Shown: positions 36,315 through 47,312 of the stretch, piece by piece | Layout: the number at the start of each line of letters is the position of its first letter | Position numbering within the stretch: the stretch's first letter is position 1 | Assembly: GCA_037442085.1 (NCBI GenBank) | Contig: JBBIQY010000003.1 | Coordinates: 27,001 to 91,000 of the forward strand | Source: Anaerolineae bacterium | GTDB taxonomy: Bacteria; Chloroflexota; Anaerolineae; Anaerolineales; UBA6663 | DNA length: 64,000 nucleotides | Direction of reading: 5' to 3' | Program-made: the position numbers and the translations under genes | The notes under the pieces: model-generated | Seen by the model: only the letters and a program-made list of their open reading frames with translations | What the model was told of the DNA's origin: nothing | Databases searched by the model: none

Positions 36315-37094
36315 TCAATCGCCGGCTGGAACGGACAAGCCGTTCATCCCAGCCGTTGAGAAAAGGCTGGTTTGTAGCAATTCGTCAATCGTGTGGATGA
36401 CCAGGCAGCCCGGCTCGGGGAAAAGGCCGCGCGGGTCATAGAGCACGGGGTGCAGGCCCGCGCCGCGCGCGCCCTCGATATCGGCGTAGTAGTTATCGCC
36501 CACATAGACAGCCTCGGCGGGCGCGCAGTTCGCCAGCGCCACAGCTTTTTGGAAAATCTCGGGCGCAGGCTTCCACGCGCCGGCCTGGCCGGCGGAGAGC
36601 GTGAAGTCAAACAGGCCGGTGAGGCCCAGTTCGGTCACCAGGCCGTCGAGCGCGTCGGTGCGGTTGCTAACCAGTCCGACCGTGTAGCCGGCGGCGCGCA
36701 CGCGGCTGAGAGTCGGGCGTACGTCGGCGGGCACGTGGTTCACCGGGTGATAGCGGTCGGTGAACATCCGGTTGATTTGCGCGGCCAGCGCGCCGGCGTC
36801 GCCGCCGAGCTCCAGGGCGAGGATCTGCCGCTCCGAGTAACGCTTCCAGAACTCCGGCGTATCTGCGCCAAAGGCTTCGATGTCCTCCTTCAACTCCGGC
36901 GCGATGGACCAGTAGTAGTGCGTCCAGCGCTCGCCGTGCGCCCGGCGCTCCGCGGTGAGCGGATAGCCCAGCTCTTCCAGAAAACTGATAAAGGTGGCGT
37001 AGCCTTCCGGCTCGTTGTGGCGCAGCGTGCCGTCGAGGTCGAACAGGACCGCGCGCAGCGGCGGCGCTGCTGCAATTTCAGGCTTCGTCGTCAT
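36315..37094 (-). CDS. HAD-family hydrolase
   Basis: Motif I FDLDGTL, motif II VSNR, motif IV VGDNYYADIEGA. Confidence 0.8.
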   Translation of the reverse strand: MTTKPEIAAAPPLRAVLFDLDGTLRHNEPEGYATFISFLEELGYPLTAERRAHGERWTHYYWSIAPELKEDIEAFGADTPEFWKRYSERQILALELGGDAGALAAQINRMFTDRYHPVNHVPADVRPTLSRVRAAGYTVGLVSNRTDALDGLVTELGLTGLFDFTLSAGQAGAWKPAPEIFQKAVALANCAPAEAVYVGDNYYADIEGARGAGLHPVLYDPRGLFPEPGCLVIHTIDELLQTSLFSTAGMNGLSVPAGD

Positions 37095-38406
37095 CGGCTT
37101 TGGCTTCGGCGGGGCGGCTGACCAGCTTGTAGCCGCGGCCGCGTTGAGTGAGCAGATACCGCGGGCGCAGCGGGTCCGGCTCGATCTTGGCGCGCAGGCG
37201 GCTGACCAGCTTCTCGATGCGGGCGTCGTCCACCCGATCCAGGTATTGTCCGCCCCATACTGCTTCGACGATCTGCTCTTTGGTCGTGAGCCGGTCCTGA
37301 CGCTGGTAGAGCAATTGCATCAGCCGGTATTCCAGGTCGGTGAGGACGGTGACCTTGACGCCCTCGATCCAGACTTCTCCGGCCTCTTCATCCACACGTA
37401 CGCCGAGCTGCGCCTGCTCGGGCAGCGCGGTCTGGTGGCGGACGAAGGCGGCGAACAATTCGGAGAAGAGACGGCCGTCGTCGCCGAGCAGGCCGAAGGC
37501 GTTGAGGCGCGCGCGGTCGTGCGGGGTGAGGCCGTCGTCGGGATGAGTCACCAGCATCTTCAGCGCAGCCTGTTCGTCGGGGCGCAGCTGGTTCCAGAGC
37601 TTCAGGCACTCGGCGCGAACATTCGGGTCGTTGGCATAGTTCTCGGGCTGGTGTTGTGCGGCGTGCGTCAGCACGTGCAGCAGGCCGAAGTGCCCGCCGG
37701 CGGCGGCCAACACCTCACGCTGCGTCTCCGGCGACAGGCGTTCACCCCCCACGCTCCGCAGGACGCGGCGCGCGTCGGCTTCGGAGAGCAGGCGCAGCGG
37801 CAGCACGTTGACGGTGAACAACTCGGCGAATTCGTTTTCCGGGCGGAAAGCCGGGTCGGTCAGCGGACGTGTGGTGGCAGTGACGTAAGCCAGGCGGCTC
37901 TGGAACTTATCTTTAAGTGCGCGCAGGTTGAGCAGGGTGCGATCTTCGAGGGCGATGTAGACTTCGTCGAACTCGTCGAACACCAGCACGACGTTGCGCT
38001 CCAGCAGGGTGCAGGCATCGGAGATCGCGTTATTGAACGCCAGCGAGGCCTGAAAGGCCGAGGCGGCGGTAGTGATGCGAGTGTGATGCTCGCGCAGTTG
38101 ATTGACCAGCGCTGGCGCAACCTGCGGATCGTGCTCCAGCGCTTCGATGAGCGAGCGCACGACCACTTCAAAAAAACCGGCGGCGGTCAGCTCCACGACG
38201 CGATTACAATCCACATACACCAACACGCCGGGCTGGCCGGCCAGGCGAGCATACTCGGCCAGGTTCGCCGGCGACGGCAGTGTGCGCAGCAACGGGCTCT
38301 TGCCGGTGTTGCTCAAGCCATAGACAGCGGCGCACTCGGAGCGCGCCAGGAAGCTGAGGAGTTGCGTGACGTAAGTCTGGCGGAGCGTTGGCAGAGAAAC
38401 CGACAT
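37078..38406 (-). CDS. P-loop ATPase fused to C-terminal OmpR/PhoB-type winged-helix DNA-binding domain
   Basis: Walker A GLSNTGKSPLL, Walker B VVLVFDEFDE. The C-terminal LTDLEYRLMQLLYQRQDRLTTKEQIVEAVWG...RIEKLVSRLRAKIE...LLTQRGRGYKLV is a trans_reg_C pattern. Confidence 0.7.
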   Translation of the reverse strand: MSVSLPTLRQTYVTQLLSFLARSECAAVYGLSNTGKSPLLRTLPSPANLAEYARLAGQPGVLVYVDCNRVVELTAAGFFEVVVRSLIEALEHDPQVAPALVNQLREHHTRITTAASAFQASLAFNNAISDACTLLERNVVLVFDEFDEVYIALEDRTLLNLRALKDKFQSRLAYVTATTRPLTDPAFRPENEFAELFTVNVLPLRLLSEADARRVLRSVGGERLSPETQREVLAAAGGHFGLLHVLTHAAQHQPENYANDPNVRAECLKLWNQLRPDEQAALKMLVTHPDDGLTPHDRARLNAFGLLGDDGRLFSELFAAFVRHQTALPEQAQLGVRVDEEAGEVWIEGVKVTVLTDLEYRLMQLLYQRQDRLTTKEQIVEAVWGGQYLDRVDDARIEKLVSRLRAKIEPDPLRPRYLLTQRGRGYKLVSRPAEAKADDDEA

Positions 38407-38612: not shown

Positions 38613-39287
38613 TCAGCGGAGGCTTGCGCGCAGGTAACGCAGGATGAGCACGACGCCGATCAAACCGGCGGCGAGCGCCACCATCCCCGGCACGCCGAAA
38701 TCATCCAGGAAGCCGGTGTTGGAGAGCGCGGACCGCGTGGCAGTCGCGGTCGCCGTGGCAGCGTCCGGCGTGCGCGTCAGCGCGCCGACGAGTGGTGTGG
38801 GCGTGGGCGTGCCCGGACCTACGCCGCCAATGCGCGTGGGCGTGGCCGTGCCGACGCCGCCGCCACCGCCCGCCTCAGGAGTGCCAGGCGTGGGGGCGAG
38901 GGTGGGCGTGTCGGTGGGCAACGGCGTGGCAGTGGGCGTGTCGGTCGGCAGCGGTGTGGGCGTGTCCGACGGCATGGCCGCAGCGGTCGCCTCCGCGTTG
39001 GCGGTCGCCTGCTGGGCGACGGCGGCGCGCGTCTGCTCGGCCAGGATCATATCGTTGGTCGCGATCACAGCGGCGTTCGTCGCCTCGCGTGCGGCGACCT
39101 CGGTAGCGCGAGCGTTGCGCTGGCCCGGCAGCACCAGGAAAGCGAAGGCCAGTATCGCGATGAGGATCAGCACGCCCAGGCCTCCCAGAGCCGCCAAAAT
39201 GATGAGAAAGGTGCGATTCGAACCGGTCTCTTCGGGCGGGGCCGCCTCGTCCTCGAAGTTCTCCGGTCTTGGGTCGTCCGTAGCCAT
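38613..39287 (-). CDS. Thr/Pro-rich bitopic membrane protein with LPXTG-like C-terminal signal (LSNTG)
   Basis: SD AAGGAGA. N-terminal TM FLIILAALGGLGVLILIAILAFAFLVL. PTPLPTDTPTATPLPTDTPTLAPTPGTPE linker. The C-terminus is LSNTG, a ~24-residue hydrophobic stretch, then RYLRASLR. Confidence 0.65.
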   Translation of the reverse strand: MATDDPRPENFEDEAAPPEETGSNRTFLIILAALGGLGVLILIAILAFAFLVLPGQRNARATEVAAREATNAAVIATNDMILAEQTRAAVAQQATANAEATAAAMPSDTPTPLPTDTPTATPLPTDTPTLAPTPGTPEAGGGGGVGTATPTRIGGVGPGTPTPTPLVGALTRTPDAATATATATRSALSNTGFLDDFGVPGMVALAAGLIGVVLILRYLRASLR

Positions 39288-39350: not shown

Positions 39351-40433
39351 TTACTCCAAGAGCTCCAAATTTGCGAACGGCACGGTGACGGTGGTGCGCC
39401 CCGTTTTCGTGTCGTCGAGCGCTACGGCGGCCACCGGCGCGCGCACACCGTTGGGCAGAGTCACCGCGCGCTCGCTCAGGCTGACGATGTTCCCGATCCG
39501 GCCGCGGTCCGGGCCGCGCAGGATGCGCACGCGTTTGCCTTCGGCCAGCGTGTTGCCTTCCGGCGGCAGGGCCGGCGGCACCGAGGGCGAGGGCAATAGT
39601 ATGAGGGCTTCGGGCCGCGCGCCGGTGAAGCGATTGGTGAGTTGGGCGTTGAGCCAGACTTCGCGGCCGGAATTGCCGGCCAGCAGGTTGTAGGCGGGCT
39701 CGGAAAAACCCTGCGTGTGAAACCCCTCGGCGATCATGACAGGGAAGGGTAAAGCCCGGAGCAGGGGCAGTTGCTCGGCGGGCGCGCTGCCCAGGATCAG
39801 GCCACGCACACCGATCTCCTGTAACGACTTGAACAAGCTGGTCTCGTCCACCCAGCCGGCGGCGACGATCGCGCCGCTCAGCGAGAGGTCGAGTCCGGCA
39901 GCCGGCAGGACCGCGCCGGGCGTCGTCCCCAGTAACCGCAACACCGAGAAGCTCTCCTGGCCGTTGCCCCAGATTCCTTCGAGCAAGGCGCCGGTCGTCT
40001 CGATGACGGCTCCACGGCCCGGCACGGTGTTAACAACCTCGCCCGACAAACCGGCGCGCAGCTCCAGCGGTGAGAGGGCGGCGAACAGCGCCTTGCCTTC
40101 CGAGAGCAGCGCCAGGCGCCCGTCTACGGGTGAGACCACCGGTTGATCCACCAGCCCCAACAGGGTTTTGCGTCGCGCCACCGGCTCGCCCTTTTTCACG
40201 ACATCGCCCTCCTGTTTGAGCAGATAGGGGCCGAGGCGGTCGCCGGGCACGCCGAGCAAACGCGAGAGGTCAACCAAACGGTAGTATTCGAGTTTCTCTG
40301 CCTGGGCGATCACGTCACTGGAGTCCACCCGCTGGCCGGGGCGGATGACTACGTCGCCGCGCATCGGCAGCAAGCGCTCACGGCGCAGCGTGGCAAGTAG
40401 GGTGATGTGACTGGTGGGGGGGATGTATGGCAT
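39351..40433 (-). CDS. Hypothetical protein with lipoyl/hybrid-barrel-like N-domain and KOW-like C-terminal motif
   Basis: GDVVKKGEPVA...VVSPVDGRL resembles biotinyl-lipoyl/HlyD-type hybrid motifs. GKRVRILRGPDRGRIGNIVSL resembles a KOW motif. I recognise no family. Confidence 0.6.
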   Translation of the reverse strand: MPYIPPTSHITLLATLRRERLLPMRGDVVIRPGQRVDSSDVIAQAEKLEYYRLVDLSRLLGVPGDRLGPYLLKQEGDVVKKGEPVARRKTLLGLVDQPVVSPVDGRLALLSEGKALFAALSPLELRAGLSGEVVNTVPGRGAVIETTGALLEGIWGNGQESFSVLRLLGTTPGAVLPAAGLDLSLSGAIVAAGWVDETSLFKSLQEIGVRGLILGSAPAEQLPLLRALPFPVMIAEGFHTQGFSEPAYNLLAGNSGREVWLNAQLTNRFTGARPEALILLPSPSVPPALPPEGNTLAEGKRVRILRGPDRGRIGNIVSLSERAVTLPNGVRAPVAAVALDDTKTGRTTVTVPFANLELLE

Positions 40434-40526: not shown

Positions 40527-42302
40527 TCAGGCGCCGGCCAGTTTCCACCACCAGCGTTGAACGGCCCCGAGGCGTTGCGCCTCGGCGGCGGGGAGGGTTA
40601 GCGGGCGGCCACGGCCATCGAGGATCAGGCCGACCGCGCCGCCGTCCACGTCAATTGGGCGGGCGCGCGCCCGGCCCGGGCCGGCGCCAACGTCCACGCC
40701 GGGGCGGGGCTTGAGGGTCAATTTGCCGGTCTGACCGGTTGGGAGCGGCAGCACCTCGATTGCACCTGCCCTGACCTCGACGGTGGAGGTCTTTTGATTG
40801 GCGTCCACGAGGGTGGCTGTGCCCAGCAGTGCGCCTTCGGCGGGCGGCGTCTGGCTGACCCACGACACGGCAACGCCCAGCCGCATGAGCGCATCGGACT
40901 CGAGCACCTGCACGGAGGCCAACGCATTCGCCGAGGCCAGAGCACCCAGCGCGGCCAGGGCATGATGACGATCCAGGAACAGGTCCGTCACACCGATGGG
41001 CTGTACGGCGTCGAGCAGAACCAGCGCCGCCGCGCCGGGGCTGGGTGTGCGGCCCAACGTCGCGCCGCCGCCGATCAGCACATCTACATAGGGGAGGAGG
41101 TCGGGCCGCAGGTTGGGCGCGGTTGTCGGCCATGTGGAGCGCGCGCGTTTGAGCGCGCCGGCCAGCGCCAGCCGCGCCAGCGCCAGTTCGCGCTGCAGGT
41201 CTTCGACCTCGACCGGTATGGTGAACGGATATGCTGCGCGCCACAAGCCAAACTCACGCACTTCCGGTTCGGTCAGCGGGTGCGGCGTCCAACGCGCAAA
41301 ATCGGTCCAGGGCTGGCCGGCGAGGGTGGTTTGTGCACTCAGACCTACGCCCAGGTCGGTCGCCACGGTCAGGAACAGCTCCCCGCCGAAGGCCGCGGCC
41401 ACCGAGGTGGAGGCCGAGCCAACATTGACGCTGAGCACGCCGCGCGGCGTGTTGAGCATCCGGCTGAGGAAGCGAACCATTTGGCCCTCGGCCTGTGCGG
41501 TCGGGTACATGTGCCCGGCGGCGTAATGGTCGAGGTCGGCCAGCCCGCCGATGTGGCGGGCGCGCAAGGATTTGACCAACTGGCCGAGCGCGGCCCGGCT
41601 GGCCTCCAGGTTGTTGTGGTTCAACTCGGGCTGTACGTTGGGGCCAGCATAGAATCCGGCCAGCCCACTGAGCATCTCGCCGAGGCGCGCCTGCAGCGCC
41701 TGGTTGCCGGTGAAGAACACTGCCGGGCGCTGGTCGTCCGGCAGCAGGAAGGAGGCGACGCCGACGGTTTCGGCCAGCTTGAGCAGCGCAGATTGTGCGC
41801 CGCCATCCGTGCCGCCGGCCAGCACAATCACCTCGGGCCGCGCTTTGACGATGGCCTCGATCTGCTGTTCCTGCTTGCGCCGATCCACTAAGCTGAGGGT
41901 GTCGAGCACGACCAGGTAACAGGACTCGGCCAACCGGCGTGCGTAGCGCACGGAGGCCTCCGGCAACAGGCCGACCAGCACGGTTTTGAGCGGCGCGCCC
42001 GCGCTGAACGTGGCGACGAAGGTATCGCAGCCCTGACCCTCGCTATTGACAGGCATGATCAGCCGGGCGGTGCTGTCCAGCATCTGCCGGCCGGTGATGG
42101 TCTGCAATTGCCCAAGCGCGTGGCGCAGGCCCTCGGAGGCGTCGTGAAAGGGCGGCGCGCAGGTGGAGGGCGCCTCACCCACGGCCACCAGCCGGAACTG
42201 GCCCTCGACGACGTCGAAGAGGAGCACGCGAGTGTTGGCGGCGCCGAAATCGGCGGCCAGGATAGTTTCGGCGCGGTAAGGCTGAGCAGTGGCTGCAGAC
42301 AT
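40527..42302 (-). CDS. GlmL/MutL-type ASKHA (actin-fold) ATPase family protein
   Basis: Start at MSAATAQ (ATG 42302). Phosphate-1-like ILAADFGAANTRVLLFDV. EVIVLAGGTDGG is the hallmark GGTDGG block of glutamate mutase L / EutA-like proteins. 591 aa, longer than typical GlmL. Confidence 0.65.
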   Translation of the reverse strand: MSAATAQPYRAETILAADFGAANTRVLLFDVVEGQFRLVAVGEAPSTCAPPFHDASEGLRHALGQLQTITGRQMLDSTARLIMPVNSEGQGCDTFVATFSAGAPLKTVLVGLLPEASVRYARRLAESCYLVVLDTLSLVDRRKQEQQIEAIVKARPEVIVLAGGTDGGAQSALLKLAETVGVASFLLPDDQRPAVFFTGNQALQARLGEMLSGLAGFYAGPNVQPELNHNNLEASRAALGQLVKSLRARHIGGLADLDHYAAGHMYPTAQAEGQMVRFLSRMLNTPRGVLSVNVGSASTSVAAAFGGELFLTVATDLGVGLSAQTTLAGQPWTDFARWTPHPLTEPEVREFGLWRAAYPFTIPVEVEDLQRELALARLALAGALKRARSTWPTTAPNLRPDLLPYVDVLIGGGATLGRTPSPGAAALVLLDAVQPIGVTDLFLDRHHALAALGALASANALASVQVLESDALMRLGVAVSWVSQTPPAEGALLGTATLVDANQKTSTVEVRAGAIEVLPLPTGQTGKLTLKPRPGVDVGAGPGRARARPIDVDGGAVGLILDGRGRPLTLPAAEAQRLGAVQRWWWKLAGA

Positions 42303-42309
42303 GAACGGA

Positions 42310-42963
42310 TCAGGCGCCGGACAGGAACGGCGTGATGAACTCCCACAAAAAGTTGACGCGCTCGGCGAGATAGGCGACGCTGCCCGCGAGCGCGCCGGCA
42401 TAGATAACGCCGAAGGTGACGCCGATGAAGAACTGCCCGGCCAGCGCCACGGCGCGGATCAGGGCAGACTGTTGCGCCGGCGCATTGGCCCGCGCGCGGG
42501 CGCCGTAGTGAAAGGCCAGCAAGGTGCAGGCCGCGCCGATAAAGATCAGGGCGTTGCTGGCGAGTTGATCCAGCTCGCCGCCCAGCGCGAACCAGGTGGC
42601 CTGAGTCTGAGGGAGGAGCGTGCCGGTGATCGCGCCACCGACGGCGACCGCTGCACCCAAACCAACCAGGTAGGCCAGCGGCAGGCGGCCAAGGTTGAAG
42701 CCGCTGGAGAACATCCTGAGCGCCAGCAGTGCGGCCAGCATGAGACCAACGACCGTCACCCACAGCGACCCGCCGCCGGCGAGCAATTGCGGGACGAACA
42801 CATCTAGCGTCACGGTGACGACCACAAAGCCGGCGACCGCCCCGATAAACAAGTGCAGCGCAATCCGATAGAACGGGTTGTCGCCGATGAGGTAACTCAG
42901 CACCATCAGCGTCAGCACGAAGGCGGCTGCGCCGCCGATCACGTCAGCCGATAAGCCGGTCAT
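42310..42963 (-). CDS. Polytopic membrane protein, unknown family
   Basis: 217 aa, ~6 hydrophobic helices. ATGA overlap with the upstream gene. Confidence 0.65.
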   Translation of the reverse strand: MTGLSADVIGGAAAFVLTLMVLSYLIGDNPFYRIALHLFIGAVAGFVVVTVTLDVFVPQLLAGGGSLWVTVVGLMLAALLALRMFSSGFNLGRLPLAYLVGLGAAVAVGGAITGTLLPQTQATWFALGGELDQLASNALIFIGAACTLLAFHYGARARANAPAQQSALIRAVALAGQFFIGVTFGVIYAGALAGSVAYLAERVNFLWEFITPFLSGA

Positions 42964-45620
42964 CGGGCCTTACCCCGGCGCGTCTGCGCCAGCGCGCGCA
43001 GCAAGCCGTGAATGAGATTGCCAAAGAAGAGCAGGCCGGCCACGGTCAACAAGCCGACGCCGAGCATATCCCAGCGGCGGCTCCACGCCGGGCGCTCCCG
43101 CTCCACGGCGAACACGCTGCCGCCCAGCGTGTCGTACTGCATGGCCGCCGCCGGCCCGCCGAGGAAGCCGGCAATCCGCGCGTCGCCGCCCTCGGAATAG
43201 GGACGCACCAGCGGCGCGGCGCTGGCGCTGGTCACGAGCACGAGCTTCGGCGCGACGCCCCGTGTCTGCTCCACCCAGGCGCGTGCGCCGTCGGGGGTGT
43301 GGCTTAGGACGATGACGGCGCCGAAGTCGTTGAAGGATTGGACACCGCTGAGCAACGCGGTCTGCCAGAGGTCGCCGCTGGCAGGCGTGCCCATACGCGC
43401 CACAGAGCGCGGGTCCTGGATCAATTGCCGGATGCCGAGCGGCCCGCCCGGCAGAAAGCCGAGGTTGAGGTAGTGGACGCCGCGCACGTAATCGTTGATG
43501 CGGCCCCGCGCCGCGCCGGTCAGCCGCGTCAGTTCGTCTTCGGCGACGCCGGCCCCAGTGATTTGTGTGCTGACGCCGACGATCATCAGCCCGCGCCGGA
43601 TGAGGTGACCTACCACCACATCGGCCAGCGGCGTCATCTCGCCAGCCTGGCCGGGTTCGTAATCGAAGGCTACGAGCACAGGCCGAGCGGCATCGAGCGT
43701 ATTGATCGTCTCGAAGGCGCGGGCCACTTCGGCGGGCGCGGTGCGCGGCATCGGGAACAGGCCTTCGAACGGGCCAAAGCCGGGCAAGGTTAGCAGCAGG
43801 CTGAGGAGCAATAGGGCAGTGACCAGCCAGCGTTCCCATGGCCAGCTGCTGAGCGCGCGCCGCGCTTTGACGACCTGGGCCGGCGCTTCAGTGGCCACCA
43901 GTTTGGTGAGGAGGGCCGCCTGCCGTGACTGAGCGTCGGTGTAATTCAACAGGTGAATGTTTGTGGCACTCTTTCCGGGCAGCACGACGCTGGGTTCGGC
44001 GCGCAAGACGCCGCGCAACCCGCCCAGCACACCTACAGACTCCAGGTAATCGTCAGTCTCACGCTCCAGCCCGGTCGGTGCGACATCTACTGGACGCATG
44101 GCCTCCAGCCAACTGGGCAAGTCGGCCTGGGCCAATTCGGCGGGCGGCGCGGCCGGAGGGGCAACCTCGGCTTCCGGCTCGGCGACCGCTTCCGGCTCTT
44201 CACGAAGCGAGGCCAGCCAGTCCGGCTCGGTCTCCAAGACGGACGGCGCGGTTGTGCTGGCGGGTGGTGTCTCCGAGACGACCGGCTGCGGCGCTTCGGC
44301 GGTGGGCACGGTTGGAGCCAGTTCGCCCGTCATCTTCCGGAGCCAGTCCGGCAGTTCGCCCTTTTCCAACCCGGCGACTTCCGGCATCACCGGCGCAGGG
44401 GGAGGCGGCGCCTCCTGGGGTGTAACGCCGGTGTAACCCGGTGTAACGGCTAGCGGCGTGAGAGCAGCCGTCAGCGGGCCGGTGGCGGCCTTGAGCCAAT
44501 CCGGCAACCCCTCGGGTTCGGGCGGCGCGGGCGTGGGTGTTGTCGGCTGCGCCGGCTCGCCGGCTAACATGCCGGTAGCGGTCCGGAGCCAGTCCGGCAA
44601 TTCGCCGGCAGCCGGCTCGGCGCTTGGCGTGGGCGCGTCGAGTGACCCGGGCGCCTTGCGCAGCCAGTCGGGCACTTCTTCTTCAGGCGATCCGGGTTCG
44701 ACGGGCTGGCTGGGCGGCGGGGCCGGGGGCGTGAATGGCGCGGGCGCATCGAGCGACCCGGTCGCCTTGCGCAGCCAGTCGGGCACTTCTTCTTCGGGCG
44801 ATCCGGGTTCGATGGGCTGGCTGGGCGGCGGGGTTGGAGGCGTGAATTCGGTGATGAAGGGGCCGGTCGCGGTTCGCAGCCAATCCGGCAGGTCGGCGCC
44901 AACCGGCTCAGGCTCGGTTGAGGTCGTAAAAGGCTGAGGCGTTACAGGGGGCTGTGCGGGCGCAAGATCTGCGGGCGCGACGCTTTGCAGCCAGTCCGGC
45001 ATCTCGCCGGTGGCGGGTGCAGGCGGAGGCGCGGGTGGAACCGGCATGCCGCCCGTCGCGCCCAACGACTTGAGCCAGTCCGGCAAGGCATCGCCGACGT
45101 TTTCGGCAGTCGTAAATGCGCCGGTGTCCCTCACCGGAGCAGTGCCGGGTAGAGGCATCGTATCGAGCTGATCAGGGGGCACGCCGACGGGGCCGGTCGC
45201 GCCCAACGACTTGAGCCAGTCCGGCACAGGTTCCTTGGGTTCATCGGCAATGGGCGCAGTGGCGGGGCCAAGAGGCGAGGTTGCTTCGGAGGGCAGTTGC
45301 CCTGTGCTTGTCTTCAACCAATCGGGCACATCGTCAGACGAGGCCGCTCCCTGGCTGACGCCGCCCAGGGATTTGAGCCAGTCCGGCACATCGTCGGCTG
45401 GGGATGGCGCCTGTCCGGCCAGTTCGCCGGTGGCCGTCTTCAGCCAGTCTGGGACAGACTCGGACGCGGGTTCGCTTTGGAGCCGGTCGGGCGGCTCGGC
45501 CGCTTCACCGCCAGAGGCGGGCGGCATGGCGGTTGTCTTGAGCGGCCGCTCACAATACTGGCAGAGGTCGAGAAAATCAGGGTTGGGTTTGCCGCAGTGC
45601 GGACAGCGCAGGACGGCCAT
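42960..45620 (-). CDS. Zinc-ribbon protein with 13-14 PDWL repeats, then TM - ~300-aa domain - TM
   Basis: Start at MAVLRCPHCGKPNPDFLDLCQYCERPL (CxxC...CxxC). It has 13 copies of (V/L)PDWL(K/R) plus one PSWL, embedded in Pro/Ala/Thr-rich linkers. TM segments are WLVTALLLLSLLLTL and MLGVGLLTVAGLLFFGNLIHGLL. Confidence 0.75.
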   Translation of the reverse strand: MAVLRCPHCGKPNPDFLDLCQYCERPLKTTAMPPASGGEAAEPPDRLQSEPASESVPDWLKTATGELAGQAPSPADDVPDWLKSLGGVSQGAASSDDVPDWLKTSTGQLPSEATSPLGPATAPIADEPKEPVPDWLKSLGATGPVGVPPDQLDTMPLPGTAPVRDTGAFTTAENVGDALPDWLKSLGATGGMPVPPAPPPAPATGEMPDWLQSVAPADLAPAQPPVTPQPFTTSTEPEPVGADLPDWLRTATGPFITEFTPPTPPPSQPIEPGSPEEEVPDWLRKATGSLDAPAPFTPPAPPPSQPVEPGSPEEEVPDWLRKAPGSLDAPTPSAEPAAGELPDWLRTATGMLAGEPAQPTTPTPAPPEPEGLPDWLKAATGPLTAALTPLAVTPGYTGVTPQEAPPPPAPVMPEVAGLEKGELPDWLRKMTGELAPTVPTAEAPQPVVSETPPASTTAPSVLETEPDWLASLREEPEAVAEPEAEVAPPAAPPAELAQADLPSWLEAMRPVDVAPTGLERETDDYLESVGVLGGLRGVLRAEPSVVLPGKSATNIHLLNYTDAQSRQAALLTKLVATEAPAQVVKARRALSSWPWERWLVTALLLLSLLLTLPGFGPFEGLFPMPRTAPAEVARAFETINTLDAARPVLVAFDYEPGQAGEMTPLADVVVGHLIRRGLMIVGVSTQITGAGVAEDELTRLTGAARGRINDYVRGVHYLNLGFLPGGPLGIRQLIQDPRSVARMGTPASGDLWQTALLSGVQSFNDFGAVIVLSHTPDGARAWVEQTRGVAPKLVLVTSASAAPLVRPYSEGGDARIAGFLGGPAAAMQYDTLGGSVFAVERERPAWSRRWDMLGVGLLTVAGLLFFGNLIHGLLRALAQTRRGKAR
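44632..44853. repeat. Tandem 111-bp duplication inside the PDWL-repeat gene
   Basis: 44632-44742 versus 44743-44853 are ~93 percent identical. They encode PPPSQP(I/V)EPGSPEEEVPDWLRKA(T/P)GSLDAP... twice (37 aa each). Confidence 0.9.
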
Positions 45621-45621
45621 T

Positions 45622-46290
45622 TCAATCCCCGTAGGGCCGGTCCAGGATGAGCAGCACGCGCAGGCCGGCGGCGACGATGCCGAGCGCGATGCCGAGCAGC
45701 AGGCCGCGCCCGCCGCCAACGGCCAGCACCTGTGAGAGCAGCGCCCAGACCGCGCCTCCCGTCGAGGTGAGCGCTTCCGGCAAGCCGGCCAGCATGGGTG
45801 CCAGGCTGGCTAGCGCCACCACCGCCGTCAACAAGAAGACGACCGAAGCCAGGGTCAGCGAACGCTTCAACACACGCAGGCCGGCCAGGGTCAGCAGCAC
45901 AGCCAGCAGCGCAGAGAGCGCGGCGCTGACCGGCGCGATGATGGGCTGATACACCCAGGTCTGCAAGGCTTCCGCCGGGACGAGATCGGGGGCCGTATCA
46001 CCTCGGGCGAGCAGGCCGACCACCAGGGCGAACAGGAAACCGATCACGACAAAAATGCCGTACCAGCCGCCGGGCTGGCTGAACAGGCGCGTGAGGTGGA
46101 CGCGCAGCAGATTGACTGCGCCGGCCCAGACTGCCACGGCGGCGAGCAGGCTGCCAATCGCCAGCAGCGGCGCAGACAGGCCGCGCAATTCGGGCAACAG
46201 GTCGGCGAAGAAATAGCCCACCAGAGTCACCAGCCCGACGCCGACGGCGACGGCGGTGAGGAGGATGTTCCAAGGCGAGGAAAACTTCAT
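45622..46290 (-). CDS. Polytopic membrane protein, unknown family
   Basis: Start at MKFSSPWNILL (ATG 46290, ATGA overlap with the upstream stop). ~6 hydrophobic helices. The stop is 1 nt before the next start. Confidence 0.65.
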   Translation of the reverse strand: MKFSSPWNILLTAVAVGVGLVTLVGYFFADLLPELRGLSAPLLAIGSLLAAVAVWAGAVNLLRVHLTRLFSQPGGWYGIFVVIGFLFALVVGLLARGDTAPDLVPAEALQTWVYQPIIAPVSAALSALLAVLLTLAGLRVLKRSLTLASVVFLLTAVVALASLAPMLAGLPEALTSTGGAVWALLSQVLAVGGGRGLLLGIALGIVAAGLRVLLILDRPYGD

Positions 46291-47036
46291 GGCTGCCCCA
46301 GGAACGCCTGCAGGGTCGTCCAGACAATCCCGGCCAGCATGGCGCCAACGATCAGCCAACGCATGACATCTTGCGTGCGCAGGCTGGCGACGTGCTCGGG
46401 CGCGCGGCTGAGGTAAGCGCCGGCGGAGTACACGTCCTCGCCGAGGAGGGCGTGCTCGGCGGCGGCGAACAATATCGCCTGGCCCGTGACGTTGTCGCTG
46501 CCGGCGAGGGTCGGCGCACCGGCCCGCTGGCCAGCCTCGGCAAGCAGTGCGACCTCCGCCCCCACCGAGCCGACGAAGACCGAACCGGCGATGGCCTCAT
46601 CCTTGACCACAGCCGTCAACGCGCCGTTGAACGAGAGCGGTGACAGGCCGACGACGCGCGCAGCGTCATCGCGATACTGCTCACCGGCATTCTGCTGGCG
46701 ATAGGCCTGCCGCACTAAATCCTGCGCCAGCAGCGCAGTCGCGCCATCTGCCGTCGTGATCACCGGCGGCTTATCGCTGACCACCGTCACCGCTGCCACC
46801 TGGCTGACGGTGTTCAGGCCGGCCAGGAGCGTGGCCGTATCCGGCTGGCCGAGCACACCGTGGCCAAGCGAAAGATGCAGCCGCCGGCCCGACTCGACCG
46901 CCGCGCCGATAACGTCCGGCAACTGCTTCCACACTGCCACCTCGCGCAGCCCGGCGTTGCGCGCACCCTGGCGGCGGGTGAGCACGACAAAGAACCCAAG
47001 CAGCGCGATGAAGACGAGCAGGACGAGGAGGCTCAT
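46287..47036 (-). CDS. Bitopic membrane protein (N- and C-terminal TM around ~200-aa alpha/beta-like domain), unknown family
   Basis: TM segments LLVLLVFIALLGFFVVL and WLIVGAMLAGIVWTTL. ATGA overlap with the upstream gene. Confidence 0.65.
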   Translation of the reverse strand: MSLLVLLVFIALLGFFVVLTRRQGARNAGLREVAVWKQLPDVIGAAVESGRRLHLSLGHGVLGQPDTATLLAGLNTVSQVAAVTVVSDKPPVITTADGATALLAQDLVRQAYRQQNAGEQYRDDAARVVGLSPLSFNGALTAVVKDEAIAGSVFVGSVGAEVALLAEAGQRAGAPTLAGSDNVTGQAILFAAAEHALLGEDVYSAGAYLSRAPEHVASLRTQDVMRWLIVGAMLAGIVWTTLQAFLGQP

Positions 47037-47275
47037 GATTCGGTCAATTGTTGCGCCAACCGTCGCGCGGCCTGCGGGTCTTCGAGCGTCAGTGCCAGGG
47101 CCGTCAGCGTCTCGCCGGCGGCGAACAGGCCGGCAACGGGCGTCAGCGCGTGCAGGGCCTGCGCGCCCAGAAAGGTCAGCGGCCCGCCAGTTTCCAGGAA
47201 GGAGGCCGCCAGCCCATTCAGCCCGAGAGCTTTGAGTCGGTGCACCCAGGGCGTGAGCGGCGCGGCAGTGGACAT
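47033..47275 (-). CDS. Small hydrophobic protein (80 aa), first gene of the operon
   Basis: ATG 47275 is chosen over GTG 47293 because the promoter -10 lies 8 nt upstream of it. Confidence 0.5.
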   Translation of the reverse strand: MSTAAPLTPWVHRLKALGLNGLAASFLETGGPLTFLGAQALHALTPVAGLFAAGETLTALALTLEDPQAARRLAQQLTES

Positions 47276-47283
47276 TAAGGGCG

Positions 47284-47312
47284 AGTGTAGCACAGAGACT
47301 TTTTCAGGACAA
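47284..47312 (-). promoter_or_regulatory. Sigma70-type promoter TTGTCC - 17 nt - TACACT, 8 nt before the first ATG of the operon (leaderless)
   Basis: On the minus strand, -35 is at 47312..47307 and -10 at 47289..47284, with ATG at 47275. It has the same TTGTCC -35 and 17-nt spacing as the kinase promoter at 26691. Confidence 0.5.

What the first reader, a model, noticed from the sequence alone, without database searches (positions are those of the whole stretch)
44060..45620. CxxC...CxxC zinc ribbon followed by 13-14 copies of a (V/L)PDWL(K/R) motif
The N-terminal ~520 aa of the 886-aa protein is a zinc ribbon (CPHCGKPNPDFLDLCQYC). It is followed by PDWL(K/R)(T/S/K)(A/L)(T/G)G cores spaced 20-45 residues apart in Pro/Ala/Thr/Glu-rich, probably disordered linkers. 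The invariant Asp-Trp-Leu suggests a short linear motif bound repeatedly by a partner, giving multivalent recruitment. Partners could be the adjacent ATPase or the 360-aa protein. I know of no characterised function for this repeat.
Basis: seen in the sequence. Interest (0 to 1): 0.7.

Follow-up and report, generated by a model that had tools for sequence, protein, structure and literature searches.

The report
Repeated PDWL docking motif on membrane protein
A membrane protein of a Chloroflexota (Anaerolineae) bacterium carries 14 copies of a tiny conserved peptide motif (acidic-hydrophobic-Pro-Asp-Trp-Leu) on a long, floppy, acidic arm inside the cell; the motif has no Pfam or NCBIfam model and no paper in the held library, it recurs in a second unrelated protein family, and it most likely works as a string of docking sites for a binding partner that is still unknown.

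Summary
The 886-aa protein (window 45620..42960, minus strand) has a 4-Cys zinc ribbon (aa 6-23). After it come 13 exact PDWL and 1 PSWL, 20-51 residues apart. Chance expects 0.015 PDWL, and every Trp of the first 519 residues lies in a motif.

The arm is predicted disordered and strongly acidic. It is followed by a TM helix, a generic alpha/beta domain (inferred to be outside the cell) and a second TM helix.

The architecture is kept in all 120 best of 1714 homologues, which carry Anaerolineales/Chloroflexota labels. The family-wide motif is [DE]-hydrophobic-P-D-W-L-x-x-[LM]. No Pfam or NCBIfam model and no paper in the held library covers it.

The gene sits in a strictly collinear 8-gene cluster in every one of 82 loci where the contig is long enough. 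The cluster holds DUF6754, two 6-TM proteins, a GlmL-like actin-fold ATPase, a KOW protein and an LPXTG wall-anchored protein.

New here: the same motif array, with the same flanks, occurs in a second family (TPR - array - TPR) and in one PKD surface protein, away from this operon. It is therefore a portable short linear motif.

A partner from inside the operon is neither shown nor required. The reader protein remains unidentified.

The parts
42960..45620 (-). g4: 886-aa protein. Order of parts: zinc ribbon, PDWL array, conserved junction, TM1, alpha/beta domain, TM2, basic tail.
   Evidence: ORF and translation. There are 1714 homologues, and all of the best 120 share the C-terminal domain. 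AlphaFold model.
45552..45605 (-). Zinc ribbon CPHCGKPNPDFLDLCQYC (aa 6-23) at the free tip of the arm
   Evidence: Family consensus is CPxCGKPNPxxLxxCQ[YF]C. The Cys are invariant or nearly so. pLDDT is 87-93 with beta strands. Pfam zinc-ribbon models hit only below threshold.
44106..45452 (-). Array of 14 motifs (13 PDWL + 1 PSWL) in an acidic disordered arm. The first bases of the motifs on the minus strand are 45452, 45386, 45326, 45224, 45083, 44999, 44888, 44783, 44672, 44597, 44504, 44351, 44225 and 44117.
   Evidence: Coordinates. Chance statistics. Family logo [DE]-hydrophobic-P-D-W-L-x-x-[LM] from 1553 instances. Arm net charge is -51 here and -65 at the family median. pLDDT is <50 except for local peaks on motifs.
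44625..44847 (-). The only recent tandem duplication (111 bp x 2), giving repeats 8 and 9
   Evidence: Tandem Repeats Finder reports 91% matches. Repeat 9 is absent in relatives P0002 and P0003.
43992..44120 (-). Terminal repeat LPSWLEAMRPV plus the GxLxGLRGVLxAEP junction (aa 501-543). This is among the most conserved segments of the protein, with invariant or near-invariant residues densely packed.
   Evidence: P502, W504, P510, G530, L532 and G534 are invariant. L501, A507, M508, R509, V538, L539 and P543 are at least 90% conserved in 107 sequences.
43773..43838 (-). Transmembrane helix 1 (about aa 595-616)
   Evidence: AlphaFold helix 595-611. Hydropathy peak 598-616. Basic residues precede it (sequence).
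43125..43733 (-). Alpha/beta six-stranded domain (aa 630-832), inferred to lie outside the cytoplasm
   Evidence: pLDDT is >90. The fold search gave only generic Rossmann-like matches at E >= 1.3e-3. No PDB sequence hit. Not homologous to DUF6754.
43005..43073 (-). Transmembrane helix 2 (about aa 850-872), followed by the basic tail RALAQTRRGKAR
   Evidence: sequence.
47033..47293 (-). g1: 86-aa protein, first gene of the conserved cluster
   Evidence: Orthologue upstream of g2 in 56 loci.
46287..47036 (-). g2: DUF6754 protein (TM - domain - TM)
   Evidence: Pfam PF20539, E 3.9e-35. Collinear in 74 loci. Hydropathy.
45622..46359 (-). g3: 6-TM membrane protein. Its stop lies 2 nt before the g4 start.
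42310..42963 (-). g5: 6-TM membrane protein. Its start overlaps the g4 stop.
40527..42302 (-). g6: GlmL/MutL-family actin-fold (ASKHA) ATPase, with a C-terminal beta domain and a basic Trp-containing terminal helix
   Evidence: Pfam PF13941, E 1.8e-58. NCBIfam GlmL score is far below its cut-off. AlphaFold pLDDT 93. The fold search returned hydantoinase/acetone carboxylase beta, PilM, FtsA, reactivases and Hsp70. Nucleotide-binding glycines are conserved. C-terminus RRELxxKW[LI][WY]x[LV]GG.
39351..40433 (-). g7: 360-aa protein, inferred soluble (no clear TM helix), with a KOW motif and a weak barrel-sandwich-hybrid signal
   Evidence: Pfam KOW, E 5.9e-5, just above its cut-off. Collinear in 76 loci.
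38613..39287 (-). g8: TM - Pro/Thr-rich spacer - sortase-type sorting signal (LSNTG here, LPxTG in orthologues)
37078..38406 (-). g9: STAND/AAA_16 NTPase fused to an OmpR-type winged helix. It is a neighbour only in close relatives and is not part of the core cluster.
   Evidence: Pfam. Present in 16 of 82 loci.

Best explanation
PDWL is a portable short linear motif, and g4 is a membrane-anchored scaffold that displays it many times.

Topology (inferred). The zinc ribbon and the roughly 500-residue acidic disordered arm are cytoplasmic. TM1, the alpha/beta ectodomain and TM2 anchor the arm in the membrane. g4 sits among the products of a conserved 8-gene module that runs from the cytoplasm (actin-fold ATPase g6, KOW protein g7) through the membrane (g2, g3, g5) to the cell wall (LPXTG protein g8).

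Motif action (inferred). Each [DE]-hydrophobic-P-D-W-L-x-x-[LM] unit is taken to fold on binding into a one- to two-turn helix capped by Pro-Asp. It would place the hydrophobic residue at -1, Trp, Leu and the +6 Leu/Met on one face, into a groove of a soluble reader protein. Fourteen weak sites on one flexible chain would then give avidity and concentrate many reader molecules at the membrane complex.

Reader (not shown).
- First choice, about 0.2: the actin-fold ATPase g6. This is by analogy with FtsA binding the FtsZ tail and PilM binding the PilN peptide.
- Second choice, about 0.2: the TPR domains of the second family.

Shown: the motif, its conservation, disorder, acidity, portability and gene context.
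For: The motif is real and far beyond chance.

It is conserved across all 120 best homologues, while copy number (3-20 exact PDWL; 4-24 with the relaxed pattern), spacing (median 32 aa, 10th-90th percentile 21-62) and linker sequence vary. In 70%-identical relatives the motif positions are 91% identical and the linkers 60%. Only one pair of repeats is a recent duplication.

AlphaFold gives pLDDT <50 for most of the arm. Short helices fall on motifs at 246-251, 282-285, 344-348 and 503-507. All six 10-residue blocks of the arm with pLDDT >=53 contain a motif.

The arm is 75% disorder-promoting residues and has net charge -51 (family median -65).

Portability:
- A motif-only DNA pattern scan of metagenomes recovered 44 g4-type loci, 19 TPR-type loci and a PKD-TM-tail protein.
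- An array-only protein search of 1.84 billion representatives returned 80 g4-type and 34 TPR-type proteins among 128 new hits.
- The TPR-family logo matches the g4 logo position by position.

Context: g1-g8 are collinear in every one of 82 loci where the contig is long enough.

g6 is a confident actin-fold model. Its structural neighbours include PilM:PilN(1-12), FtsA:FtsN and FtsA:FtsZ-peptide complexes.

No existing model or paper covers the motif.
Against: No binding was tested, and no complex prediction was possible with these tools.

The TPR-family and PKD-family arrays are not next to g6. So operon adjacency, the main argument for g6, does not explain them.

g6 has its own basic Trp-containing C-terminal helix that could take it to the membrane without g4.

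Fold matches of g6 to PilM and FtsA are generic for the superfamily (TM-scores 0.2-0.4), and the best hits are hydantoinase-type enzymes.

Genome-level co-occurrence of g4 with the TPR family could not be established.
Confidence: 0.55

Rival explanations
1. Reader-and-ligand network. The TPR domains of the TPR-array-TPR family are the readers of PDWL. That protein, holding both readers and ligands, would cross-link into a cytoplasmic mesh or condensate. g4 would tie this mesh to the membrane complex.
For: TPR is a peptide-binding fold (established knowledge). TPR modules flank the same motif array in 19 of 120 scan loci and 34 of 128 representative hits. The motif logos of the two families are the same. 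The TPR N-domain is highly conserved, at 60-81% identity among its best 120 homologues. Both families carry Anaerolineales/Chloroflexi labels.
Against: No TPR gene lies in or near the g1-g8 cluster. Presence of both families in one genome was not shown. The PKD-tail protein comes from a 39% GC contig of unknown affiliation. No binding data exist.
Confidence: 0.2
2. FtsZ-tail mimicry. The motif copies the conserved C-terminal peptide of FtsZ (E. coli DYLDIPAFLRKQAD). The array would dock onto the proteins that read that tail (FtsA, SepF and others), placing g4 and its envelope module at the division septum.
For: Seven of the 14 copies in the window match [DE][LIVM]P.[FWY][LM][RK]. Copies 8 and 9 read EEVPDWLRK, against DIPAFLRK in E. 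coli. FtsZ residues I374 and L378, which are critical for ZipA, FtsA and MinC binding, align with the conserved hydrophobic -1 and Leu +3. The FtsZ tail peptide binds weakly on its own, so avidity matters (PMC4117426). FtsZ also places its peptide after a variable disordered linker (PMC12607630). FtsA is an actin-fold protein like g6.
Against: The K/R at +4 is lost in distant family members. Asp at +1 and Trp at +2 are near-invariant here but are not FtsZ features. No Anaerolineae FtsZ tail could be retrieved for comparison. A seven-residue resemblance can arise by convergence.
Confidence: 0.1
3. The motifs need no protein reader. Either they are weak membrane-interface anchors (Trp/Leu amphipathic turns), or they are homotypic 'stickers' in an acidic 'spacer' chain that forms a brush or condensate under the membrane.
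For: The hydrophobic positions -1, +2, +3 and +6 fall on one helical face. Trp favours membrane interfaces (established knowledge). Two of the three architectures place the array next to a TM helix. The g6 C-terminus KW[LI][WY]x[LV]GG resembles known membrane-targeting helices and also DWLxxLGG.
Against: The motif window -3..+8 has mean net charge -1.75, and the arm is -0.12 per residue. That should repel anionic bacterial membranes. The helix is only 5-7 residues long. Near-invariance of Pro and Asp is hard to explain by lipid contact. The TPR family has no TM segment.
Confidence: 0.1
4. The repeats are units of a folded repeat domain (solenoid or LRR-like), not linear motifs.
For: One database hit (P0461) carries LPDWL inside a true leucine-rich repeat of an LRR-Roc-COR protein.
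Against: In g4 the spacing varies from 20 to 51 aa. The linkers are 75% disorder-promoting residues. pLDDT is <50. Copy number changes between close relatives. In P0461 the period is fixed and the context is LxxLxLxxNxL, which g4 lacks.
Confidence: 0.02

Closest known systems
FtsZ C-terminal linker plus conserved C-terminal peptide, read by FtsA, ZipA, SepF, MinC, SlmA and ZapD
   Same: A short, helix-forming peptide of the form acidic - hydrophobic - Pro - x - aromatic - Leu - basic sits on a variable disordered linker. Single peptides bind weakly and polymers gain avidity. One of the readers is an actin-fold protein (PMC4117426; PMC12607630).
   Different: FtsZ has one copy at its extreme C-terminus, and multivalency comes from polymerisation. 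Here 3-20 exact copies lie in one chain anchored to the membrane. Asp and Trp are near-invariant here but not in FtsZ. Binding is untested.
PilM-PilN and FtsA-FtsN pairs (actin-fold protein bound to the short cytoplasmic peptide of a bitopic membrane protein of the same operon)
   Same: An operon-encoded actin-fold ATPase lies next to a membrane protein with a cytoplasmic N-terminal peptide region. PilM:PilN(1-12) and FtsA:FtsN(1-29) structures are among the fold neighbours of g6.
   Different: PilN and FtsN have a single N-terminal peptide and no repeats. g6 belongs to the GlmL/MutL family rather than the PilM/FtsA family. The other cluster genes show no match to pilus or divisome families.
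CsoS2 of alpha-carboxysomes and similar bacterial disordered scaffolds with repeated short motifs (from my own knowledge)
   Same: A long disordered protein carries many copies of a short conserved motif, which bind a folded client multivalently and organise an assembly.
   Different: The motif, client and cellular context are all different. g4 is an integral membrane protein, and its client is unknown.
MamJ-MamK of magnetotactic bacteria (from my own knowledge)
   Same: An acidic repetitive adaptor protein is encoded beside an actin-fold protein.
   Different: MamK is a demonstrated filament former, whereas nothing shows that g6 polymerises. There is no sequence relation.
Zinc-ribbon families (Pfam DZR PF12773, Zn_Ribbon_1 PF13240, DUF7575 PF24460)
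   Same: An N-terminal CxxC...CxxC module. Homologues carry precomputed hits to these models.
   Different: The window protein scores below every gathering threshold. The family has its own tight consensus, CPxCGKPNPxxLxxCQ[YF]C.

Membership tests
Zinc ribbon (Pfam DZR / Zn_Ribbon_1 / Zn_ribbon_3 / DUF7575) | Two CxxC knuckles about 10-20 residues apart, forming a small beta ribbon | tested here: met
   C6, C9, C20 and C23 are present. They are invariant or at least 90% conserved in 107 sequences. pLDDT is 87-93 with strands.
Zinc ribbon (Pfam DZR / Zn_Ribbon_1 / Zn_ribbon_3 / DUF7575) | Score at or above the Pfam gathering threshold | tested here: not met
   Best hit is DUF7575 at 17.2 bits against a cut-off of 28.5. 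DZR scores 15.7 against 27.3. Several homologues do carry precomputed hits.
FtsZ C-terminal peptide class of motif | Sequence pattern [DE]-[ILV]-P-x-[FY]-[LM]-[RK] | tested here: inconclusive
   Seven of 14 window copies match a relaxed form that allows Trp. Family-wide the basic residue at +4 is only 36%. The reference sequence is DYLDIPAFLRKQAD.
FtsZ C-terminal peptide class of motif | Single copy at the extreme C-terminus of a tubulin-fold GTPase | tested here: not met
   The copies are internal and multiple, in a protein with no tubulin domain.
FtsZ C-terminal peptide class of motif | Binds FtsA, ZipA or SepF | not testable with these tools
   No complex prediction or binding assay was available. 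No FtsZ or FtsA of this lineage lies in any held sequence.
GlmL/MutL family (g6, the proposed partner) | Match to Pfam PF13941 over its full length | tested here: met
   E 1.8e-58 over profile positions 1-448 of 450.
GlmL/MutL family (g6, the proposed partner) | Equivalog of the glutamate mutase accessory protein GlmL (NCBIfam cut-off; neighbourhood of mutase genes) | tested here: not met
   NF040745 scores 78.5 bits against a cut-off of 475. The neighbours are membrane proteins, not mutase subunits.
PilM/FtsA-type actin-fold peptide binders (g6) | Actin-like two-lobed fold with conserved phosphate-binding glycines | tested here: met
   pLDDT 93 and pTM 0.92. PilM and FtsA hits at E 2e-7 to 1e-5. 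D18, G20, T24, G163 and G164 are conserved.
PilM/FtsA-type actin-fold peptide binders (g6) | Closest structural relatives are PilM or FtsA, and the partner peptide is bound in their groove | tested here: inconclusive
   The best hits are acetone carboxylase / hydantoinase beta subunits (E 1e-10). TM-scores to PilM and FtsA are 0.23-0.43. Peptide binding is not testable here.
Leucine-rich repeat | Fixed period of about 22-24 residues with LxxLxLxxNxL | tested here: not met
   Spacing is 20-51 aa and there is no LxxLxL context. Contrast P0461, a true LRR that contains LPDWL.
Known anti-phage defence systems (PADLOC) | Any cluster protein matching a defence model | tested here: not met
   No hits, apart from one non-significant hit for g8 at E 0.0097.

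The most novel reading that the evidence does not exclude
PDWL arrays are the ligand half of an undescribed motif-reader system of Anaerolineae and perhaps of other lineages. A single conserved cytoplasmic reader would recognise the same peptide on a membrane-anchored envelope machine (g4), on a soluble TPR scaffold and on the tail of a surface protein. In this way it would build a multivalent, possibly condensate-like layer that couples the cytoplasm to a wall-spanning complex, for example at the septa of these filamentous bacteria.
Probability: 0.15. Interest if true: 0.8.

Novelty: new variant of a known kind. Interest (0 to 1): 0.6.

Why it matters
Short linear motifs and disordered scaffolds are well mapped in eukaryotes but poorly catalogued in bacteria. 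Here a sharply defined, strongly conserved motif is used in at least two unrelated protein families of a large, environmentally abundant and mostly uncultured class, the Anaerolineae. No model or paper in the held library describes it.

The motif flags an uncharacterised 8-gene module that seems to span the cytoplasm, the membrane and the cell wall. That module is present in every one of 82 loci where the contig is long enough.

A peptide this small and this invariant makes the partner directly findable by pull-down or complex prediction. Finding it would give a first handle on what this module does.

One practical point: a plain regular-expression search for PDWL also returns true leucine-rich repeats and tandem-DNA artefacts, so any census must check the context of each hit.

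Tried and rejected
- Pfam, NCBIfam and PADLOC scans of all nine cluster proteins gave no model for the repeat, and the cluster is not a known defence system.
- Literature searches for PDWL, DUF6754 and Anaerolineae with actin-like/MutL found nothing relevant.
- I asked whether the g4 C-terminal domain is a paralogue of DUF6754 (g2). hhalign gave 4.7% probability, so this was rejected.
- The fold search of g4 against PDB returned only generic Rossmann-like matches at E >= 1.3e-3. The PDB sequence profile search returned nothing.
- g7 matched the CW_7 cell-wall-binding repeats of Cpl-7 lysozyme at E 6.8e-10. This is one 30-residue stretch counted three times against identical target repeats (per-stretch E 0.3-0.4), so it is not significant.
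- I looked for FtsZ in the window and in all 200 or so loci, to compare its tail with the motif. None was present.
- I tried to show that g4 and the TPR family occur in the same genome by contig look-ups. The hits came from different assemblies, so the question stays unresolved.
- The first related-loci attempt, with the full-length alignment, failed because no stretch was conserved enough. It succeeded with the C-terminal alignment.
- I considered folding a peptide-g6 fusion but did not attempt it.
- There are no tRNA or Rfam features anywhere in the window.


Full report
**Observation.** The gene is on the minus strand, from ATG 45620 to the stop at 42960, and encodes 886 aa. The ORF list offers an upstream TTG (45719), but all homologues begin MAxxRCPxCGK, so the ATG is the start.

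Residues 6-23 form a four-cysteine zinc ribbon, CPHCGKPNPDFLDLCQYC. From residue 57 to 505 there are 13 exact PDWL and one PSWL, 20-51 residues apart. From the composition of this stretch 0.015 PDWL are expected. The maximum in 100,000 shuffles was 2. All 14 tryptophans of the first 519 residues lie in the motifs. A fifteenth, decayed copy (PPDRL, aa 43-47) aligns with GPDWL in close relatives.

At the DNA level only repeats 8 and 9 are a recent duplication (111 bp x 2, 91% identical, 44625-44847). The other copies have diverged.

**Anatomy of the protein.** An AlphaFold model was built with 107 homologues.
- The zinc ribbon is confident, with pLDDT 87-93.
- Most of residues 31-557 have pLDDT <50.
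- Short helices fall on motifs at 246-251, 282-285, 344-348 and 503-507. All six ten-residue blocks of the arm with pLDDT >=53 contain a motif.
- After the arm come a helix (562-578), a transmembrane helix (595-611) and a confident six-stranded alpha/beta domain (630-832, pLDDT >90).
- The protein ends with a second long hydrophobic helix (843-885) and a basic tail.

The alpha/beta domain has no specific relative. Foldseek against PDB gives only generic Rossmann-like hits at E >= 1.3e-3, and a profile search of PDB sequences gives nothing.

The arm has net charge -51 (family median -65, about -0.12 per residue). It is 75% Pro/Ala/Glu/Ser/Thr/Gly/Asp/Gln.

Three features point to one topology. 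The N-terminus is a zinc ribbon with no signal sequence, basic residues precede TM1, and basic residues follow TM2. I therefore infer that the arm is cytoplasmic and the alpha/beta domain lies outside the membrane. This topology is inferred, not shown.

**Conservation.** A search of 5.8 billion proteins gave 1714 homologues at E <= 1e-3.
- All of the best 120 share the C-terminal domain.
- Nearly all have the same ribbon, CPxCGKPNPxxLxxCQ[YF]C.
- All carry 3-20 exact PDWL (4-24 with the relaxed pattern [PAS][DES]W[LMIV]).

A logo from 1553 instances gives, by position:

| Position | Residues |
|---|---|
| -3, -2 | Asp/Glu (65% at -2) |
| -1 | Leu/Val/Met/Ile (73%) |
| 0 | Pro (93%) |
| +1 | Asp (81%) |
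| +2 | Trp |
| +3 | Leu/Met (94%) |
| +6 | Leu/Met (54%) |

Spacing has a median of 32 residues, with a 10th-90th percentile range of 21-62.

In relatives that are 70% identical overall, motif positions are 91% identical and linkers 60%, and copy number differs between them. One of the most conserved parts of the protein is the last copy together with the junction that follows it: LPSWLEAMRPV ... GxLxGLRGVLxAEP, aa 501-543.

This pattern is that of a short linear motif array, not a folded repeat. The core is invariant, the linkers drift, the number and spacing are variable, and the chain is disordered.

**What is known about it.** No Pfam or NCBIfam model covers the repeat, and only sub-threshold zinc-ribbon hits appear. 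PADLOC finds no defence family. Full-text searches for PDWL and DUF6754 found nothing relevant.

**Gene context.** The gene is the fourth of eight tightly packed genes on the same strand.

| Gene | Product |
|---|---|
| g1 | 86 aa |
| g2 | DUF6754 (TM - domain - TM) |
| g3 | 6-TM protein |
| g4 | this protein |
| g5 | 6-TM protein |
| g6 | GlmL/MutL-family actin-fold protein |
| g7 | 360 aa with a KOW motif |
| g8 | TM - Pro/Thr spacer - sortase-type signal |

The g8 signal reads LSNTG here and LP[ASNDT]TG followed by a hydrophobic segment and ARRLR in orthologues.

Two distant homologues have the same order. A scan of one genome per species confirmed 153 relatives. In the 80 kept, the order g1-g8 is collinear wherever the contig allows: g4 and g5 in 82 of 82 loci, g6 in 79, and g3, g7 and g8 in 76 each. 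Record titles name Anaerolineales, Anaerolineae or Chloroflexota almost throughout. A few odd labels, such as Methanosarcinales, look like binning or labelling errors.

The STAND-winged-helix gene g9 is a neighbour only in 16 close relatives. The window sequence comes from a subsurface metagenome, with relatives in hot springs.

**The neighbouring ATPase.** g6 matches Pfam MutL over its full length (E 1.8e-58) but is far below the NCBIfam GlmL cut-offs (78 bits against 475). It has no mutase genes nearby, so it is not a glutamate mutase accessory protein.

Its model is confident, with pLDDT 93 and pTM 0.92. Fold neighbours, in order, are:
- acetone carboxylase / hydantoinase beta subunits (E 1e-10);
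- PilM, including PilM:PilN(1-12);
- FtsA, including the FtsA:FtsN and FtsA:FtsZ-peptide complexes;
- diol dehydratase reactivase;
- Hsp70.

All have low TM-scores of 0.2-0.4. Phosphate-binding residues are conserved. The C-terminus is a conserved basic helix with an invariant Trp, RRELxxKW[LI][WY]x[LV]GG. From my own knowledge this resembles the membrane-targeting helices of MinD and FtsA.

**The key new result: the motif is portable.** I scanned metagenome contigs with a DNA pattern that encodes only three spaced copies of the motif. The 120 loci returned were classified as follows:

| Class | Loci |
|---|---|
| g4 family, with operon genes alongside | 44 |
| Second family, TPR - array - TPR | 19 |
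| Other | 13 |
| Chance or out-of-frame matches | 44 |

The second family has:
- an N-terminal TPR domain of about 280 aa;
- an acidic disordered region with 5-16 copies of the same motif;
- often a second repeat, DDA[IL]AWLE[SG]LAAKQGA..EEL;
- in some members a helix-hairpin-helix domain;
- a C-terminal TPR module.

Its motif logo equals the g4 logo position by position. Its neighbours are housekeeping genes (pyrimidine nucleoside phosphorylase, NDK, UDG, QueA), and no g1-g8 gene is nearby. Its homologues are labelled Anaerolineales or Chloroflexi.

One 1899-aa protein on a 39% GC contig (L124) has a different architecture again. It carries a T4SS-pilin-like N-terminal segment, PKD domains and a TM helix. 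After the TM helix comes an acidic Asn/Glu-rich tail with eight hydrophobic-PDWL-K copies.

An independent search used only the arm (aa 31-520) against 1.84 billion representative proteins. It gave 206 hits at E <= 1e-3. Of the 128 new sequences among the best 150, 80 have the g4 C-domain and 34 the TPR domains. The remaining 14 are fragments, two divergent g4 proteins, and one LRR-Roc-COR protein in which LPDWL is part of a folded leucine-rich repeat. That last protein is a false positive, and a warning for regular-expression censuses. Within the g4 loci the motif occurs only in g4.

**Mechanism.** I conclude that PDWL is a portable cytoplasmic short linear motif.

The hydrophobic positions -1, +2, +3 and +6 fall on one face of a short helix that Pro-Asp would cap, and AlphaFold places one-turn helices there. 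The acidic flanks (mean charge -1.75 for positions -3 to +8) and the polyanionic arm argue against binding to anionic membranes. They argue for insertion into a groove of a protein.

That complex itself appears to reach from the cytoplasm to the wall.

These steps are inferred. What is shown is the motif, its selection, disorder, charge, portability and context.

- For g6: strict co-conservation with g4, a cytoplasmic location, and membership of a fold in which PilM and FtsA bind short peptides of membrane or cytoskeletal partners.
- Against g6 as a private partner: the same array sits in proteins encoded elsewhere, and g6 has its own likely membrane anchor.
- The TPR domains of the second family are an equally good candidate, since TPR is a peptide-binding fold placed beside its putative ligand. 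I could not show that both families occur in the same genome.

A third lead is the FtsZ tail. The E. coli sequence is DYLDIPAFLRKQAD, with I374 and L378 critical for ZipA, FtsA and MinC binding and weak affinity as a free peptide (PMC4117426). It follows a variable disordered linker (PMC12607630). Copies 8 and 9 here read EEVPDWLRK, and seven of 14 copies fit [DE][LIVM]P.[FWY][LM][RK]. However, the basic position is not conserved family-wide, and no FtsZ of this lineage was available for comparison.

I put about 0.55 on the general mechanism, a multivalent docking array read by a protein. Within it I put about 0.2 on g6, 0.2 on TPR, 0.1 on FtsZ-tail readers, and the rest on g7 or an unknown factor. 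Reader-free models (membrane contact or homotypic stickers) get about 0.1, and a folded repeat about 0.02.

**Comparison with known systems.** In how it works, the array resembles three known cases: FtsZ's linker-plus-tail, the PilN-PilM and FtsN-FtsA peptide pairs, and disordered multivalent scaffolds such as CsoS2.

It is a member of none of them.
- It fails the positional and domain criteria of the FtsZ tail.
- g6 fails the GlmL equivalog criteria and is not specifically PilM- or FtsA-like.
- The arm fails the LRR criteria.

The only family it can be filed under is the generic zinc ribbon, for residues 6-23, and even there it is below the Pfam thresholds.

**Verdict.**
- It is a real, strongly selected repeat motif with no Pfam or NCBIfam model and no paper in the held library.
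- The partner is unknown and probably not confined to the operon.
- The motif marks an uncharacterised 8-gene envelope module, present in every examined locus where the contig is long enough, and a second TPR scaffold family.
- Novelty: a new variant of a known kind, namely bacterial disordered scaffolds with repeated short linear motifs.
- Interest: 0.6.

Noticed in passing
window 38613-39287 (-), g8; orthologues in L004-L081: The last gene of the cluster ends in a sortase-type sorting signal: LSNTG here, canonical LP[ASNDT]TGF followed by a hydrophobic segment and ARRLR in orthologues. It also has an N-terminal TM helix and a Pro/Thr-rich spacer. The cluster therefore probably includes a protein covalently anchored to the cell wall.
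   Followed up: partly
L093, L114, L121, L147, L151, L158, L175, L193 (complete ORFs); L203-L205: A second protein family, TPR domain - PDWL array - TPR domain, labelled Anaerolineales/Chloroflexi. It carries another repeat, DDA[IL]AWLE[SG]LAAKQGA..EEL, and in some members an HHH_3 domain. It keeps synteny with a pyrimidine nucleoside phosphorylase gene upstream and ndk downstream.
   Followed up: partly
L124 985-6681 (+): A 1899-aa protein on a 39% GC contig. It has a T4SS-pilin-like N-terminus, several PKD domains and a TM helix. After the TM helix comes an acidic Asn/Glu-rich tail with eight hydrophobic-PDWL-K copies. This is the same motif in a third architecture and probably in another lineage.
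   Followed up: partly
window 40527-40580 (-), C-terminus of g6: The actin-fold protein ends in a conserved basic helix with an invariant Trp, RRELxxKW[LI][WY]x[LV]GG. It looks like a MinD/FtsA-type membrane-targeting helix and also resembles the DWLxxLGG of the g4 motif.
   Followed up: no
window 39906-39995 (-), g7 aa 147-176: The stretch TGALLEGIWGNGQESFSVLRLLG resembles a CW_7 cell-wall-binding repeat of phage Cp-7 lysozyme. The whole-sequence E of 6.8e-10 is inflated by three identical target repeats, and the per-stretch E is 0.3-0.4.
   Followed up: yes
P0461 (representative library hit): An LRR-Roc-COR protein whose leucine-rich repeat consensus itself contains LPDWL at a fixed period. 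A regular-expression census for PDWL occurring 5 or more times would wrongly include it.
   Followed up: yes
L203-L205 and proteins P0247, P0277, P0309, P0339, P0356: On Mb-scale MAG contigs the TPR-array genes are called as truncated products of 335-471 aa, which end in out-of-frame sequence or are followed by separately called gene fragments. The same family reads as intact ORFs of 948-1430 aa in other metagenome contigs. This suggests frameshift errors in the repeat region.
   Followed up: partly
L011 (JAIWHF010000017.1), L063 (DYDH01000037.1): Contigs carrying the full g1-g8 cluster are titled 'Methanosarcinales archaeon' and 'Herpetosiphon sp.'. Mis-binning or mislabelling is likely.
   Followed up: no
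window 37078-38406 (-), g9: A STAND/AAA_16 NTPase fused to an OmpR-type winged-helix DNA-binding domain lies directly downstream of the cluster. It does so only in the window's close relatives, 16 of 82 loci.
   Followed up: partly
window 1-64000: No tRNA gene and no Rfam family at gathering threshold in the whole 64 kb. G+C is a uniform 63-70%.
   Followed up: yes
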